Shown piece after piece: positions 1 through 11,292 of a DNA stretch of 36,986 bases (its first letter is position 1; every line of letters starts with the position of its first letter). The position numbers were made by a program, and so were the translations under genes. The stretch is from a virus (lineage: Duplodnaviria; Heunggongvirae; Uroviricota; Caudoviricetes). The notes beneath the pieces are model-generated. The model had not been told where the DNA came from and ran no database searches. It worked only from the letters and a program-made list of their open reading frames with translations. Where the stretch lies: the IMG/VR virus record IMGVR_UViG_2671180460_000002. One strand, given 5' to 3'.

Positions 1-1
1 C

Positions 2-184
2 CGCCAGCTTGAGTACAAGCAGCTCTGGCGTGGCGGTCAGGTGCTTGCTGTTCCGCCAGCGTACACAAGCCAGCGTTGCGCGTGCTGTGGTCATACAGCG
101 AAAGAATGTGGGGTAGTGATCAATTCTGGACTGAGTGAGAACAGCCTGGACGAGCCTATAAGCCTTGAGTGGCGCAGGATGTGA
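2..184 (+). pseudogene. IS200/IS605-family TnpB-like C-terminal fragment, apparently interrupted by the prophage left end
   Basis: Frame beginning at 2 reads ...PPAYTSQRCACCGHTAKE..., matching the YTSQ-C-CG zinc-finger region of TnpB/OrfB. After AKE (about nt 106) the expected second Cys pair is absent and the frame stops after 25 unrelated codons. ORF is open at the window edge. Confidence 0.5.
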
Positions 185-411: not shown

Positions 412-1059
412 TCATGCTGATTTTTTACTTACAGATTTTGTTTCTTGCTCCGGTGTGACATCGGTCTGATCACCCGGCGATTGTGGTCGTATATGAGATT
501 CAACAATTCGCAAAATCTCTCTGTCAGTATCTTCGTTTCCATGTAATGCTACTCGGATTGCATCCTTAAGTGATTTCCTGATATTCAGACTTTGGATAGC
601 ATTCTCTTGCTCCTCCAGCGTGTTAGCGGCTTGTTTCGCTTGCCTAGTGGGTTGTTGCAGACGTTTTAGGATTCCTTTGATACCCATATCACATATTGCA
701 TTTATCAATAGTTCTTTATCTTCTGTGGACGCTCTTTTCAATAACTCGTTAGCTAGCTCGTTTGTAATATCGGGAGAAGGCTGCGCTGTTTGGTTTGATA
801 AAGAGTTTGCTGTGGCGGTGAGTTCCTCACCATAAGCGAGCCAATTTAAACTTACCTGCTCTTTATCTGAGATAAGGCAGGCTATTTTAAAAGAGGGTTC
901 TGTTCCTTTATGGATGTAGTTGTTTAAGGTTGAAGGAGGGATACCCCAGTCGCTCGCGGCAGTTCTGACACTGCGCCCACCTATTAGTTTTACTAAACGC
1001 TCTCTAAAACTTTCTTTTCCTCGGTCAACTAAAGAAAAAGCGTCATCATTTTTTGTCAT
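412..1059 (-). CDS. prophage repressor (Mu c-like position), HTH DNA-binding protein
   Basis: Leftward ORF at the left end, divergent from ner. ATG at 1059 is preceded by AGGAAAGG; the track start at 1092 is a TTG. HTH-like segment ...RSVRTAASDWGIPPSTLNNYI... Confidence 0.6.
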   Translation of the reverse strand: MTKNDDAFSLVDRGKESFRERLVKLIGGRSVRTAASDWGIPPSTLNNYIHKGTEPSFKIACLISDKEQVSLNWLAYGEELTATANSLSNQTAQPSPDITNELANELLKRASTEDKELLINAICDMGIKGILKRLQQPTRQAKQAANTLEEQENAIQSLNIRKSLKDAIRVALHGNEDTDREILRIVESHIRPQSPGDQTDVTPEQETKSVSKKSA

Positions 1060-1192
1060 TTTTCCTTTCCTATTTAACCAATTGATTTTCAATCACAAAA
1101 CTATATAAAGACCAAAAGCAAAAAGAAAATACAAAGAAAAGGCTATTTTTGCTTTACATGGGTTACATATGGATCAATACTTATATCCGAAG

Positions 1193-1225
1193 GGATAACA
1201 CGGCGGTGTTATCCGCACGGATAAC
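1193..1225. promoter_or_regulatory. operator-like inverted repeat GGATAACAC-N4-GTGTTATCC with an extra GGATAAC half-site
   Basis: Perfect 9-bp inverted repeat at 1193-1214 plus a third half-site at 1219-1225, in the repressor-ner intergenic region just upstream of ner. A TTTACA hexamer at 1153-1158 is a possible -35. Confidence 0.5.
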
Positions 1226-1241
1226 TTTTAAGGGTAACCTA

Positions 1242-1478
1242 ATGATGGTTAGAAATGAAGTAATGAACCTGGACTGGCACCGCGAGTACATTGTCGCAGC
1301 TGTGCACACCAAAGGTTTTACATTGCGTGAACTGTCTGTTCGCGCTGGTCTAAAAAAAGACTCTTTAAAAAATGCATTGTATCGCTCATGCCCTAAATAT
1401 GAACGCATCATAGCCGATGCTATTGGTGTGGAACCTGCGGAGATCTGGCCAAGCCGGTATGCCAGTAAGGCGGCATAA
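1242..1478 (+). CDS. ner: Ner-like DNA-binding regulator
   Basis: Translation contains DWHREYIVAAV...IWPSRY, matching Mu Ner (DWHRADVIAG...IWPSRY). Stop overlaps the transposase start. Confidence 0.85.
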   Translation: MMVRNEVMNLDWHREYIVAAVHTKGFTLRELSVRAGLKKDSLKNALYRSCPKYERIIADAIGVEPAEIWPSRYASKAA

Positions 1479-3520
1479 TGTTTTATTCAGCCAATGAACT
1501 GGCCGGTCTTACTGGTTTGCCCGGTACAGTTCAGGGGGTGCGCTGGACGCTCAATCGGATCACAGAGACGCACCCGGAATGGAAGCGCAAGCGTGAAGGC
1601 ACCAAAGCATTCGAGTATCACATCGACTGCCTGCCCGCTGAAGCGCAGAAGGTTTTACGTAAGCGCCTGACTCATCAGGTCCTGGAAGATGCACAACTGC
1701 CCGCCGTGGTTGAGCAGAAGGCAGTTAAAAACGTCGCCGTTCGTGATGAACTGGAAGTGATGGTCAAATGCCCGGAACTGGCATTACGCGAAGTTCAGGC
1801 ACTGACCGACAAGCAAAAGGCCATCGCTGATGCGCGGATATTGCTGGCTACCGAAGTGCATAAACTGCGTGAATACGCAAGAATGTCCAGGACGGCAGCG
1901 ATAAAACACATTGTTGATGGTATCCGCCAGGAGGCTTTGCCCGAGCGCGTTATTGTGGCAGGTAATACCGCCAATGCCCGACAGGGTAAGCGAACTGGCG
2001 TCAGTACAGGGAGTTTACAGGAATGGTATTCCGCCTGGCTGATGGCGCGCGGTGATGCCAATCAGTTACTGGCGTTACTGGCTCCCGGTCATCATAAGGG
2101 AACACCGTGGGAGCAGGTTTGGTGGTTGAGCGATTTCTTTATGTTCTATCGCTCATGGAAGCGCCCGACCGTTGAATATGCGTATCGCGAGTTTTCAGCC
2201 TGGTGGCATGAAAAACACGCGAACGATGCGGGAATGCTGGCGGCACTGCCTTCAGTTCACGCAGTAAGACGGGTGTTAAGCAGCGTCCCGGTGATTGTTA
2301 AAGAGCGTTTCCGCTCCACCGGTTCAGCCTGGCGTTCGCTCAATCCCTTTGTGCGACGCGACTGGAGCACATTACCGGTTAATGCGGTATGGGTCGGGGA
2401 TGGTCACTGTATGAAAATGACCGCGTTTAACCCCCTGACCGGCAATATTTTCCGGCCAGAAGTGACGCTGGTTATGGATGCGGGGCAGCGCTTTGTTGTG
2501 GGCTGGTCGCTGTCCCTGTCGGAGAACGTGATAGCCGTTGCTGATGCGTTACGTTACGGCATGGCGCAGCACGGGATACCGCTGATTTATTACTCCGATA
2601 ACGGGGGCGGCGAAAAAAACCGGGTACTTGATGCCGATATTACCGGGATTCTGCCCCGTCTGGGTGTGGAACATCACACGGGGATACCAGGTAACCCACA
2701 GGGGCGCGGGGTGATTGAAAGGCTTAACAAGGAAATTCCCCGGGATGTGGCCCTGAGTTTCCGGACGTACTGCTCAAAGGGAGCAGACAAGGAAACCGTA
2801 ATGATGCAGCAACGGATTATGCAGTCAGCCATTAAGGCCACCCACAAAGGGAAAGAGCTGACAAAACGGCAGGTTAAGTCAAGGGATGAAATCCCCACCT
2901 TTGAGCAACTGATGGCAGCTATAGAGCTGGAGGTCAGACGCTATAACAACCGGCCACACAGCAGCCTTCCCCGCAAAGAGGATGGCGAATATTACAGTCC
3001 GGCAGCGTATCGCCGGAAACTGATAAAAGAACAGAATGTTGAAATTGATTTTCTGTCGCCGGAAGAGCTGCATGAAATGTTCAGACCGGAGGTGACGCGC
3101 AAAACATTTCGCGGGGAAATTCAGTTATTCAACAATATTTATTACTCGTATGAGCTGGCAGCAGAGCACGGAAATGAAGTCAGGGTTTGTTACGACATTC
3201 ACGACGCAAACAGCGTGATTGTCAGGCGGATGGACGGTTCTTATATCTGCGATGCCATCTGGAACGGTAATAAGGTTGATGCGTTCCCGAAAGCTGTTAT
3301 CGAACAGCAGCAGGAGAAACGCGCCAGAGGCCGCATTGCACGGGCCACGCAGAAAATCGAAGAGGCTAAACGCGAGCTTACCCCGGCTATTACGCAGAAG
3401 CCTGACTTTAATTTTGGATGTGGTCTGGAGCGTAAGGAGGAAAAGAAAAAAGAAGAACTTTATTTCTTTGCATCCGAGCGTGACCGCAATTTAAAGAAAG
3501 ACGGCACAAACAACCGTTAA
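1478..3520 (+). CDS. Mu-type DDE transposase (MuA-like)
   Basis: 680 aa, immediately after ner. N-terminal winged-helix-like region followed by a large catalytic core, size and position as for MuA (663 aa). Confidence 0.9.
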   Translation: MFYSANELAGLTGLPGTVQGVRWTLNRITETHPEWKRKREGTKAFEYHIDCLPAEAQKVLRKRLTHQVLEDAQLPAVVEQKAVKNVAVRDELEVMVKCPELALREVQALTDKQKAIADARILLATEVHKLREYARMSRTAAIKHIVDGIRQEALPERVIVAGNTANARQGKRTGVSTGSLQEWYSAWLMARGDANQLLALLAPGHHKGTPWEQVWWLSDFFMFYRSWKRPTVEYAYREFSAWWHEKHANDAGMLAALPSVHAVRRVLSSVPVIVKERFRSTGSAWRSLNPFVRRDWSTLPVNAVWVGDGHCMKMTAFNPLTGNIFRPEVTLVMDAGQRFVVGWSLSLSENVIAVADALRYGMAQHGIPLIYYSDNGGGEKNRVLDADITGILPRLGVEHHTGIPGNPQGRGVIERLNKEIPRDVALSFRTYCSKGADKETVMMQQRIMQSAIKATHKGKELTKRQVKSRDEIPTFEQLMAAIELEVRRYNNRPHSSLPRKEDGEYYSPAAYRRKLIKEQNVEIDFLSPEELHEMFRPEVTRKTFRGEIQLFNNIYYSYELAAEHGNEVRVCYDIHDANSVIVRRMDGSYICDAIWNGNKVDAFPKAVIEQQQEKRARGRIARATQKIEEAKRELTPAITQKPDFNFGCGLERKEEKKKEELYFFASERDRNLKKDGTNNR

Positions 3521-10946: not shown

Positions 10947-10966
10947 TTAAATAATAACCAATAACA

Positions 10967-11010
10967 GACCAAAACATATGTTTTGGTCTGCCAAAAGTAG
11001 TGTTTTGGTC
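10967..11010. promoter_or_regulatory. twin palindromes GACCAAAACATATGTTTTGGTC and GCCAAAAGTAGTGTTTTGGTC
   Basis: Perfect 22-bp palindrome at 10967-10988 immediately followed by an imperfect copy, just upstream of the ATG at 11014. Confidence 0.5.
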
Positions 11011-11013
11011 ATT

Positions 11014-11292
11014 ATGAAGATTGAACAAATCGGAATGGCAGCCTTCCGGCAACAGGCTGAAAGCGGTGGTGTGGATGAGTTCGTCGTGCAGCGGTTCGGT
11101 GGTGTGTATCACCTCTTCGCTGTGAATCGCCGCGCCGGGGTGTCCTATTTTCTACAGGAACGCCGTGGCGATTACAAGACGTGGCTGTCTCTTGACCGTG
11201 CCGCCGCGTTCCTGTCGGGGATTGGTGTTTCTCGTTTTACCGTGCGTTTTGAGGATAACAAACATGCTGAAAAAGATGATCGGAGCCATTAA
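11014..11292 (+). CDS. hypothetical protein
   Basis: ATG at 11014 after the twin palindromes; the track start at 10978 lies inside the palindrome. 3' end overlaps the GemA-like gene in another frame. Confidence 0.35.
   Translation: MKIEQIGMAAFRQQAESGGVDEFVVQRFGGVYHLFAVNRRAGVSYFLQERRGDYKTWLSLDRAAAFLSGIGVSRFTVRFEDNKHAEKDDRSH

What the first reader, a model, noticed from the sequence alone, without database searches (positions are those of the whole stretch)
1093..1241. Repressor-ner switch region with a perfect 9-bp inverted repeat plus a third half-site
Between the divergent repressor and ner starts, GGATAACAC-N4-GTGTTATCC (1193-1214) is followed by another GGATAAC (1219-1225), immediately upstream of ner. 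This is the expected place for the operators of the lysis-lysogeny switch, but the sequence is unlike Mu operators, suggesting a distinct repressor specificity (immunity type).
Basis: partly seen in the sequence, partly recalled or inferred. Interest (0 to 1): 0.4.

Follow-up and report, generated by a model that had tools for sequence, protein, structure and literature searches.

The report
Likely Ner operator, not immunity operator
The repeated GGATAAC motifs just upstream of ner in this Mu-like prophage are real and conserved, but they most likely bind Ner (the phage's Cro-like early regulator) rather than the immunity repressor, so this is an ordinary, uncharacterised piece of a phage switch.

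Summary
GGATAACAC-GGCG-GTGTTATCC (1193-1214) and a third GGATAAC (1219-1225) are present, plus a fourth, degenerate half-site (TATCC, 1184-1188).

The region therefore reads as two 16-bp palindromes 26 bp apart: ATATCC-N4-GGATAA (1183-1198) and TTATCC-N4-GGATAA (1209-1224). Their inner halves form the perfect repeat.

The array starts 2 nt after the -10 of a conserved sigma-70 promoter (TTTACA-17-AATACT, 1153-1181). That is the position of the annotated Ner-binding region in phage Mu.

- In 14 distinct relatives the array keeps exact register with the ner start, and GAT.A / T.ATC are invariant.
- In five independent mosaic pairs it stays with the same Ner, while the repressor N-terminal domain and the left part of the spacer are exchanged.
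- Two more distant Ner types carry different palindromes at the same place.
- Nearly every repressor lineage examined instead has its own purine-rich inverted repeat at or next to the -35. Here it is AAAGCAAAAA, 1115-1124 / 1146-1155.

The array is most likely the Ner operator, not the immunity determinant (confidence 0.6). No binding data exist. Repressor co-binding and a 5'-leader RNA hairpin remain rivals. Verdict: new member of a known kind, modest interest.

The parts
1193..1214 (.). Perfect 9-bp inverted repeat GGATAACAC-GGCG-GTGTTATCC (central dyad C), formed by the inner halves of sites A and B
   Evidence: 89.7% of cells are symmetric in 14 lineages. The core GAT.A / T.ATC is invariant and the 4-nt centre is free to vary.
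1183..1198 (.). Site A: 16-bp palindrome ATATCC-GAAG-GGATAA, spanning the expected early-transcript start
   Evidence: 1 mismatch to TTATCC-N4-GGATAA, repeat D1. Symmetry is kept in 76.6% of cells across relatives. It is a perfect TTATCC-ATAC-GGATAA in L124.
1209..1224 (.). Site B: 16-bp perfect palindrome TTATCC-GCAC-GGATAA.
   Evidence: 0 mismatches, repeats I6 and D1. 84.7% of cells are symmetric.
1232..1238 (+). GGGTAAC, a near half-site 13 bp after the GGATAAC of site B, overlapping the ner Shine-Dalgarno. It reads GGATAA in the Yersinia/Edwardsiella type.
   Evidence: Function is inferred only.
1153..1181 (+). Predicted early promoter Pe: -35 TTTACA (1153-1158), 17-nt spacer, -10 AATACT (1176-1181)
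   Evidence: 9 of 12. By my reading of the sequences, a sigma-70-like pair with a 17-nt spacer sits at the same place in most relatives. Mu Pe is TTTACA-17-TATCTT at the equivalent place.
1115..1155 (.). Purine-rich inverted repeat AAAGCAAAAA (1115-1124) / TTTTTGCTTT (1146-1155). The right arm overlaps the Pe -35. This is the candidate repressor operator.
   Evidence: repeat I3. Nearly every lineage examined has its own purine-rich inverted repeat at or next to the -35. This part of the spacer is exchanged together with the repressor N-terminal domain.
1058..1068 (.). Third copy of the purine-rich motif (ATTTTTCCTTT = reverse complement of AAAGGAAAAAT), overlapping the repressor start codon
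   Evidence: repeat D2 (91% identical to 1145-1155). Inferred possible autoregulatory site.
1242..1478 (+). ner (78 aa), Ner/HTH_35 family. It is the first gene of the early operon, and its stop overlaps the transposase A start at 1478.
   Evidence: HTH_35, E 3.8e-25; EnrR 7F9H, E 3e-16; Mu Ner 1NER, E 6e-12; phrog_769.
412..1059 (-). Repressor (215 aa) with a CI-type HTH N-terminal domain. It is not a homologue of the Mu c repressor.
   Evidence: Phage_CI_repr, E 3.6e-6, above cut-off; phrog_3037, transcriptional repressor, E 1.9e-53.

Best explanation
The GGATAAC array (1183-1225) is the operator of Ner, the Cro-like early regulator encoded immediately downstream.

**Proposed mechanism (inferred).**
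- It consists of two 16-bp palindromes, TTATCC-N4-GGATAA: site A (1183-1198) and site B (1209-1224), with centres 26 bp apart.
- Each palindrome would bind a Ner dimer. Further contacts may occur at the central dyad and at GGGTAAC on the ner Shine-Dalgarno.
- The array begins 2 nt after the -10 of the early promoter Pe and covers roughly -5 to +37.
- Bound Ner would therefore occlude or block RNA polymerase and turn down early (ner-A-B) transcription once Ner has accumulated, as Ner does in Mu.

**Immunity** is set elsewhere, by the CI-type repressor acting on a lineage-specific purine-rich inverted repeat at the Pe -35 (1115-1155).

**Shown:** the anatomy, position, conservation and co-inheritance with ner.
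**Inferred:** Ner binding, stoichiometry, transcription start and regulatory outcome.
For: 1. **Position.** The array starts 2 nt after a promoter (TTTACA-17-AATACT). By my reading, that promoter recurs with 17-nt spacing in most relatives. In Mu the record places the Ner-binding region between 1028 and 1063, just after Pe (TTTACA-17-TATCTT) and before ner. There the sequence has the dyad AGCTAGCTAAGT-N6-ACTTAGTTAAAT.
2. **Conservation of sequence, not just pairing.** The last 75 nt before ner are in the same register in all 14 lineages; MAFFT adds gaps only in the leftmost columns, upstream of the array. GAT.A, T.ATC and TAA are invariant while the 4-nt centres vary freely (GGCG, GCAG, CGAC, CGCC, TGCT, CAGC, ATCC). 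Most pairs never vary.
3. **Co-inheritance with ner.** In four pairs Ner is 97-100% identical, the repressor N-terminal domain is 36-47% identical, the right spacer is 82-100% identical and the left spacer is 49-67%. L146 versus L150 is a fifth case. E. coli hits H26-H32 begin at window 1168-1170.
4. **The site changes with the Ner type.**
   - Ner proteins with a DSLK recognition helix have RGATAA half-sites.
   - The NNLYNAV type (L146) has TTGATAACTAA-GT-TTAGTTATCAA, with symmetric flank changes.
   - RTLNNAL types have TGTCTAAGACA (L007) or TATTAC-N5-GTAATA plus TTATTAC-N2-GTAATAA (L178) at the same place, although they have CI-family repressors.
5. **The array tracks Ner rather than the transposase N-terminal domain.**
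   - L108 and L127 have identical A N-termini, but Ner is 86% identical and the arrays differ.
   - L111 and L124 have 99% identical Ner and different A N-termini, and both keep the array.
6. **Family precedent.** The Ner-family protein EnrR binds a palindrome as two closely packed molecules. Its crystallised DNA contains ATATC-TATA-GATAT (PMC9023278).
7. **Uniqueness.** The palindrome occurs nowhere else in the window.
Against: - There are no binding or transcription data. The Pe start site is predicted, not mapped.
- The array is physically adjacent to ner, so co-inheritance could reflect linkage alone.
- The GATAAC core persists with a Ner only 49% identical (L146). All close relatives also share a repressor recognition helix beginning ST(L/I)NNY. 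A conserved repressor contact therefore cannot be excluded.
- The unit of recognition is ambiguous:
  - the Sodalis type keeps only the central dyad, extended to 12 bp, and has degenerate outer halves;
  - the Yersinia type breaks the central dyad;
  - the L128 and L195 types have A-B spacing of 24 bp, not 26.
- In the perfect repeat the half-site centres are about 14-15 bp apart, which is wider than in the EnrR complex.
- The transcript would fold into a stable hairpin (-19.5 kcal/mol, z = -4.6).
Confidence: 0.6

Rival explanations
1. The array is an operator for the immunity repressor (an O3-like site downstream of Pe), alone or shared with Ner.
For: - It lies in the switch region.
- All close relatives that carry GATAAC cores also have repressors of one family with a conserved ST(L/I)NNY recognition-helix start.
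- In Mu, from my own memory and not verified here, repressor site O3 lies downstream of Pe near the Ner region.
Against: - The repressor N-terminal domain and the left spacer are exchanged in five mosaics without any change in the array.
- Nearly every repressor lineage has its own purine-rich inverted repeat at or next to the Pe -35, a more conventional place for a repressor.
- More distant members of the same repressor family (L007, L178) lack GATAAC and have other palindromes that match their Ner type.
Confidence: 0.15
2. The palindrome acts mainly as RNA. It would be a 5'-proximal stem-loop in the early transcript leader that stabilises the mRNA or modulates ner translation or termination. 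Site B followed by UUUU could act as a weak attenuator.
For: - Predicted hairpin of -19.5 kcal/mol, z = -4.6, with 0 of 200 shuffles as stable. The Sodalis type gives -17.4, z = -6.6.
- There are a few two-sided changes at the outer and inner stem positions.
- GTTATCC-GCAC-GGATAAC is followed by TTTTAA.
Against: - The stem sequence is invariant rather than covarying.
- The Yersinia and Edwardsiella types fold differently, and L108 does not fold above background (-5.7, z = -0.5).
- The extra half-sites H1 and H4 and the strict register fit protein sites better.
- The terminator scan did not call it.
- There is no Rfam match.
- The Shine-Dalgarno is not sequestered in the predicted fold.
Confidence: 0.1
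3. The array is the transposition enhancer (internal activation sequence), bound by the N-terminal winged-helix domain of the transposase A. In Mu the operator region doubles as the enhancer.
For: - The transposase keeps a Mu-type N-terminal DNA-binding domain (HTH_Tnp_Mu_1, residues 7-139).
- The repressor is not homologous to that domain, so the enhancer must be some other site in this region.
Against: - L108 and L127 have identical A N-termini but different arrays.
- L111 and L124 have different A N-termini but both keep the array and the same Ner.
- L146 has an A N-terminus visibly similar to the Yersinia type (sequences), yet its array flanks differ and follow Ner.
Confidence: 0.05

Closest known systems
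Ner operator of phage Mu (region between Pe and ner, about 1027-1056 of AF083977)
   Same: - It lies immediately downstream of the -10 of an early promoter with -35 TTTACA and a 17-nt spacer.
- It lies upstream of ner, with a divergent repressor gene on the other side.
- It is made of two repeated units with dyad symmetry.
- The downstream gene belongs to the same protein family.
   Different: - There is no sequence similarity (CTAAGT-type units versus GGATAAC).
- Units here are 16-bp palindromes 26 bp apart, against 12-bp units with a 6-bp gap.
- The partner repressor is CI-type, not Mu c-type.
- Binding is experimentally shown for Mu (from memory: Tolias and DuBow 1986; Goosen and van de Putte 1984) and only inferred here.
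Ner operator of phage D108
   Same: It is a Ner-specific dyad repeat in the early regulatory region of a Mu relative, with a specificity different from Mu. This is from memory (Kukolj, Tolias, DuBow and co-workers); a 61-bp operator is cited in PMC10434027, reference 21.
   Different: Different sequence. D108 has a Mu c-type repressor. Not examined here.
EnrR-DNA complex (Ner-family protein of Edwardsiella; PDB 7F9H/7F9I; PMC9023278)
   Same: - It is the closest solved relative of this Ner (E 3e-16).
- Two molecules bind a palindrome through the HTH.
- The crystallised DNA ATATC-TATA-GATAT resembles TATCC-GAAG-GGATA.
- The base-contacting Arg55 and Asn51 correspond to R48 and N44 here (my residue mapping from the alignment and the text).
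   Different: - EnrR is a chromosomal-island nucleoid-associated regulator of AT-rich DNA.
- Its half-sites are 2 bp closer together.
- The contact residue Arg47 is Asp40 here.
- The crystallised DNA was designed, not a natural operator.
Lambda Cro / OR logic
   Same: A small second repressor is transcribed rightward from the early promoter and binds palindromic sites in the divergent switch region to turn early transcription down.
   Different: - In lambda, Cro and CI share the same operators.
- Here the comparative data point to separate sites for the two proteins: the array downstream of the -10 for Ner, and the -35 inverted repeat for the repressor.

Membership tests
Ner / HTH_35 protein family (the gene downstream, 1242-1478) | Match to Pfam HTH_35 above the gathering score | tested here: met
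   88.1 bits against a cut-off of 25, E 3.8e-25; phrog_769.
Ner / HTH_35 protein family (the gene downstream, 1242-1478) | Sequence similarity to solved Ner-family structures | tested here: met
   EnrR 7F9H, E 3.1e-16; Mu Ner 1NER/1NEQ, E 5.9e-12.
Ner / HTH_35 protein family (the gene downstream, 1242-1478) | First gene of the early operon, directly upstream of a Mu-type transposase and divergent from the repressor | tested here: met
   The ner stop overlaps the A start at 1478. A carries Mu-transpos_C, HTH_Tnp_Mu_1 and rve domains.
Mu-type Ner operator | Lies between the early-promoter -10 / start site and the ner start codon | tested here: met
   The -10 is at 1176-1181, the array at 1183-1225 and the ATG at 1242. 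Mu has the same layout. The promoter is predicted, not mapped.
Mu-type Ner operator | Two or more repeated units with dyad symmetry | tested here: met
   Sites A and B match TTATCC-N4-GGATAA with 1 and 0 mismatches.
Mu-type Ner operator | Sequence similarity to the Mu Ner sites (AGCTAGCTAAGT / ACTTAGTTAAAT) | tested here: not met
   No similarity by eye, and no blastn hit to Mu. Ner is only distantly related to Mu Ner, so a different specificity is expected.
Mu-type Ner operator | Travels with ner, and changes with the Ner type, across mosaic relatives | tested here: met
   Confounded by physical linkage.
Mu-type Ner operator | Bound by Ner, and repression of Pe depends on it | not testable with these tools
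   Needs EMSA or footprinting and reporter assays.
Immunity (repressor) operator | Co-varies with the repressor DNA-binding domain | tested here: not met
   The array is unchanged between repressor classes with 36-47% identical N-terminal domains.
Immunity (repressor) operator | Overlaps the core promoter elements of the lytic promoter | tested here: not met
   The array lies downstream of the -10. The other inverted repeat (1115-1155) overlaps the -35.
Mu c-type operators O1-O3 | The cognate repressor is homologous to Mu c (MuA-like winged helix) | tested here: not met
   The repressor matches Phage_CI_repr, not HTH_Tnp_Mu_1.
Structured RNA / intrinsic terminator | Match to a curated RNA family, or a G+C-rich stem followed by a U-run | tested here: not met
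   No Rfam hit at E of 1 or less. The terminator scan does not call it. The hairpin is not conserved in the Yersinia type or L108.
DnaA box (TTATCCACA) | Conserved TTWTNCACA 9-mer | tested here: not met
   TTATCCGCA (1209-1217) matches 8 of 9, but the CACA part varies freely in relatives (GCG, GTC, GCC, GGT).

The most novel reading that the evidence does not exclude
The dyad array has a double life. As DNA it is a phased set of overlapping Ner sites (three 16-bp palindromes at 13-bp intervals, seen most clearly in the Edwardsiella type). As RNA it is a 5'-leader hairpin whose stability sets ner expression. Such a dual element could underlie the unexplained temperature-dependent choice between lysis (37 C) and lysogeny (26 C) reported for the closely related Yersinia phages vB_YpM_5 and vB_YpM_6 (PMC10434027).
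Probability: 0.05. Interest if true: 0.6.

Novelty: new member of a known kind. Interest (0 to 1): 0.3.

Why it matters
- **Prevalence.** Mu-like prophages with a CI-type repressor and this Ner occur in E. coli, including EPEC E2348/69 and STEC strains. 43 of 5,426 complete genomes had a match. Relatives occur in Yersinia, Edwardsiella and Sodalis.
- **Status.** Their switch has not been dissected. RefSeq calls both regulators only 'helix-turn-helix domain-containing protein'.
- **What the comparison gives.** It yields a testable modular map. The repressor and a lineage-specific inverted repeat at the -35 form one exchangeable module, which would set immunity. Ner and the GGATAAC array downstream of the -10 form another.
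- **Consequence for immunity groups.** They should be predicted from the repressor N-terminal domain and the left half of the spacer, not from the GGATAAC repeat.
- **For Ner-family work.** It supplies a defined candidate natural operator for a Ner clade with a different recognition helix.
- **Overall.** The result is useful but not surprising.

Tried and rejected
- **Dispersed GGATAAC sites as a regulon.** The 20 copies against 3.2 expected are mostly xxG-GAT-AAC codons on the coding strand. Rejected.
- **DnaA box.** TTATCCGCA matches 8 of 9, but the CACA part is not conserved in relatives. Rejected.
- **IHF site within the array.** None. The only spacer match to WATCAANNNNTTR is at 1075-1087.
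- **Known RNA family.** No Rfam hit.
- **Attenuator or terminator.** Not called by the scan, and the alternative hairpins are not conserved.
- **Repressor promoter Pc.** The best minus-strand candidate is only 8 of 12 (TTTTCT-18-TATAGT, 1129-1100). I could not decide whether Ner at the array would also affect repressor transcription, as it does in Mu.
- **Literature.** Five searches found no paper that defines operators for this phage group. The original Mu and D108 Ner footprinting papers are not in the library, so their details are cited from memory.
- **Solved structure for the repressor.** No significant hit.
- **Symmetry counts.** Counting symmetric pairs cannot separate a DNA palindrome from an RNA stem. 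The argument rests on sequence invariance and on lineages that lack the stem.

Full report
**1. Observation**

The sequence contains GGATAACAC (1193-1201), GGCG, GTGTTATCC (1206-1214) and a further GGATAAC (1219-1225). It lies between the repressor ATG (1059, minus strand) and the ner ATG (1242).

- The symmetry extends to 18-nt arms (1184-1201 / 1206-1223, 83% complementary).
- There is a 16-nt direct repeat, TATCCGAAGGGATAAC / TATCCGCACGGATAAC, with 26-bp spacing.

The region therefore holds four alternating half-sites. These can be read as two 16-bp palindromes: site A, ATATCC-GAAG-GGATAA (1183-1198), and site B, TTATCC-GCAC-GGATAA (1209-1224). The inner halves of A and B, plus AC/GT, form the perfect 9-bp repeat.

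Chance estimates:
- A perfect 9-bp repeat with a short spacer arises in 2.4% of random 182-bp sequences of this composition.
- The 16-bp palindrome with at most 1 mismatch occurs nowhere else in 37 kb.
- GGATAAC is over-represented in the window (20 copies against 3.2 expected). That excess is a codon effect (xxG GAT AAC) and not a regulon.

**2. Surroundings**

- The leftward gene (412-1059) encodes a 215-aa protein with a Phage_CI_repr HTH and matches PHROG 'transcriptional repressor'. It is not a Mu c homologue.
- The rightward gene (1242-1478) is a Ner / HTH_35 protein. Its closest solved relatives are EnrR and Mu Ner.
- It is followed by a Mu-type transposase and an AAA+ B-like protein.
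- The only good sigma-70 match in the spacer is TTTACA-17-AATACT (1153-1181, plus strand).
- By my reading of the sequences, a promoter with a 17-nt spacer sits at the same place in most relatives. In Mu, Pe is TTTACA-17-TATCTT.
- The array therefore begins 2 nt after the -10 and covers about -5 to +37 of the early transcript. The start site is predicted, not mapped.

**3. Relatives**

Searches of E. coli genomes, phages, species-representative genomes, viral contigs and metagenomes gave 14 distinct versions of the 75 nt before ner.
- The array is in the same register in all of them. MAFFT adds gaps only in the leftmost columns, upstream of the array.
- GAT.A (1194-1196, 1198), T.ATC (1209, 1211-1213) and TAA (1222-1224) are invariant.
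- The 4-nt centre of the perfect repeat varies freely.
- All three dyads hold: C 89.7%, A 76.6% and B 84.7% of cells symmetric. This is mostly through invariance, with few two-sided changes.

Lineages differ in which dyad is best kept:
- The Sodalis type keeps only the central one, extended to 12 bp.
- The Yersinia and Edwardsiella types break the central one but keep A and B. In Edwardsiella there are three TTATCY-N4-RGATWA units in 13-bp phase.
- The L128 and L195 types have A and B 24 bp apart.

**4. Which protein?**

The relatives are mosaics, and that is informative.
- In four pairs (window/L001, L004/L125, L111/L124, L006/L127) Ner is 97-100% identical and the right spacer 82-100% identical. 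In the same pairs the repressor N-terminal domain is only 36-47% identical and the left spacer falls to 49-67%.
- L146 and L150 are a fifth pair.
- In E. coli genomes such as 08-00022, homology to the window starts at 1168-1170, at the -10 (H26-H32).

More distant Ner types that still sit next to CI-family repressors carry different sites at the same position:

| Locus | Sequence at the array position | Ner recognition helix |
|---|---|---|
| L146 | TTGATAACTAA-GT-TTAGTTATCAA | NNLYNAV |
| L007 | TGTCTAAGACA | RTLNNAL |
| L178 | TATTAC-N5-GTAATA and TTATTAC-N2-GTAATAA | RTLNNAL |

(All.)

The array follows Ner rather than the transposase N-terminal domain.

Nearly every repressor lineage examined has its own purine-rich inverted repeat at or next to the Pe -35:
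- window: AAAAGCAAAAAGA / TATTTTTGCTTTA, perfect core 1115-1124 / 1146-1155;
- class II: CTTTCTTTTC-N10-GAAAAGAAAG;
- Yersinia type: ACCAAAGAAAG / TTTTCTTTTGT.

That repeat, with a third copy on the repressor start (1058-1068), is the better candidate for the immunity operator.

**5. Mechanism proposed**

Ner, made from the first gene of the Pe transcript, binds sites A and B, and possibly the central dyad and the GGGTAAC on its own Shine-Dalgarno. It would block initiation or early elongation at Pe.

This is the role and the position that Ner has in Mu. There the record marks the Ner region just after Pe, and the sequence shows AGCTAGCTAAGT-N6-ACTTAGTTAAAT.

The Ner-family protein EnrR binds a palindrome as two closely packed molecules. 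Its crystallised DNA, ATATC-TATA-GATAT, resembles TATCC-N4-GGATA. The base-contacting Arg55 and Asn51 correspond to R48 and N44 here, while Arg47 is Asp40 (PMC9023278).

I could not locate the repressor promoter with confidence; the best candidate scores 8 of 12 at 1129-1100. Whether Ner also represses repressor synthesis stays open.

**6. Rivals**

- **Repressor co-binding** cannot be excluded. All close relatives share an ST(L/I)NNY recognition-helix start, and the GATAAC core survives with a Ner only 49% identical. Linkage to ner also confounds the co-inheritance argument.
- **An RNA hairpin** is predicted to be stable in the window (-19.5 kcal/mol, z = -4.6) and in the Sodalis type. It is not conserved in the Yersinia type or L108. 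There is no Rfam match and no terminator call.
- **A transposition-enhancer role** is unlikely.
- **A DnaA box** is rejected.

**7. Comparison and novelty**

The element works like, and sits like, the Mu and D108 Ner operators. It has a different sequence, unit size and spacing, and it is paired with a CI-type rather than a Mu c-type repressor.

No paper in the library defines operators for this phage group. The Yersinia relatives were described only at genome level, with an unexplained temperature-dependent lysogeny (PMC10434027).

I class it as a new member of a known kind. The link to repressor specificity or immunity type is not supported. Interest is modest (0.3).

Noticed in passing
window 1115-1124 / 1146-1155 (and 1058-1068): Perfect 10-bp purine-rich inverted repeat AAAGCAAAAA / TTTTTGCTTT whose right arm overlaps the Pe -35. 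A third, 91% identical copy lies on the repressor start codon. Nearly every related lineage examined has its own version at or next to the -35.
   Followed up: yes
window 1075-1087 (minus strand): Exact match to the IHF consensus WATCAANNNNTTR (AATCAATTGGTTA), one of only 2 in the 37-kb window. By my inspection of the spacers, the consensus is kept in class I and class II relatives despite substitutions in the N4 part. Mu also uses IHF in its switch region.
   Followed up: partly
window 1172-1175: A Dam site (GATC) directly abuts the Pe -10 hexamer. It is present at the same place in most relatives (GGATCAATACT, GTGATCAAATAT, AGATCGATAAT). The early promoter may be sensitive to methylation.
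   Followed up: no
window 1168-1181: The recombination junction between the repressor module and the ner module falls at the Pe spacer / -10 in the window/L001 comparison and in E. coli hits H26-H32; searches show the same left/right split in further pairs.
   Followed up: yes
window 1-124: The window starts inside the C-terminal part of an IS200/IS605-type TnpB (Cas12f1-like TNB domain, E 1.2e-11). It is cut off where the Mu-like left end begins, so the prophage appears to have inserted into a TnpB gene.
   Followed up: partly
window 124-133, 198-207, 249-258: Three TTCTGGAYYG-like repeats sit in the first 260 bp of the element. They may be transposase end-binding sites (attL). The motif is not enriched window-wide.
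   Followed up: no
window 10965-10990 and 11001-11012: A perfect 26-bp palindrome, CAGACCAAAACAT|ATGTTTTGGTCTG, is followed by a third half-site (GTGTTTTGGTCA). It lies in a short gap between small ORFs, and the ATG of ORF 10978-11292 sits in its centre. The neighbouring ORFs have no Pfam match. It looks like another operator or activator site, perhaps for middle or late regulation.
   Followed up: partly
window 1232-1238: GGGTAAC, 13 bp after the last GGATAAC, overlaps the ner Shine-Dalgarno. It reads GGATAA in the Yersinia/Edwardsiella type. It may be a fifth half-site.
   Followed up: partly
window, whole (20 sites): GGATAAC is six-fold over-represented. The excess is explained by the codon pair GAT-AAC preceded by G, on the coding strand.
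   Followed up: yes
L004 (Yersinia phage vB_YpM_5) and relatives: These close relatives of the switch region are reported to lyse at 37 C and lysogenise at 26 C by an unknown mechanism (PMC10434027). Their central dyad is asymmetric: GATTATCC-GGCG-GTGTTATCC.
   Followed up: no
window 1476-1480: The ner stop codon (TAA, 1476-1478) overlaps the transposase start (ATG, 1478-1480), which suggests translational coupling.
   Followed up: no
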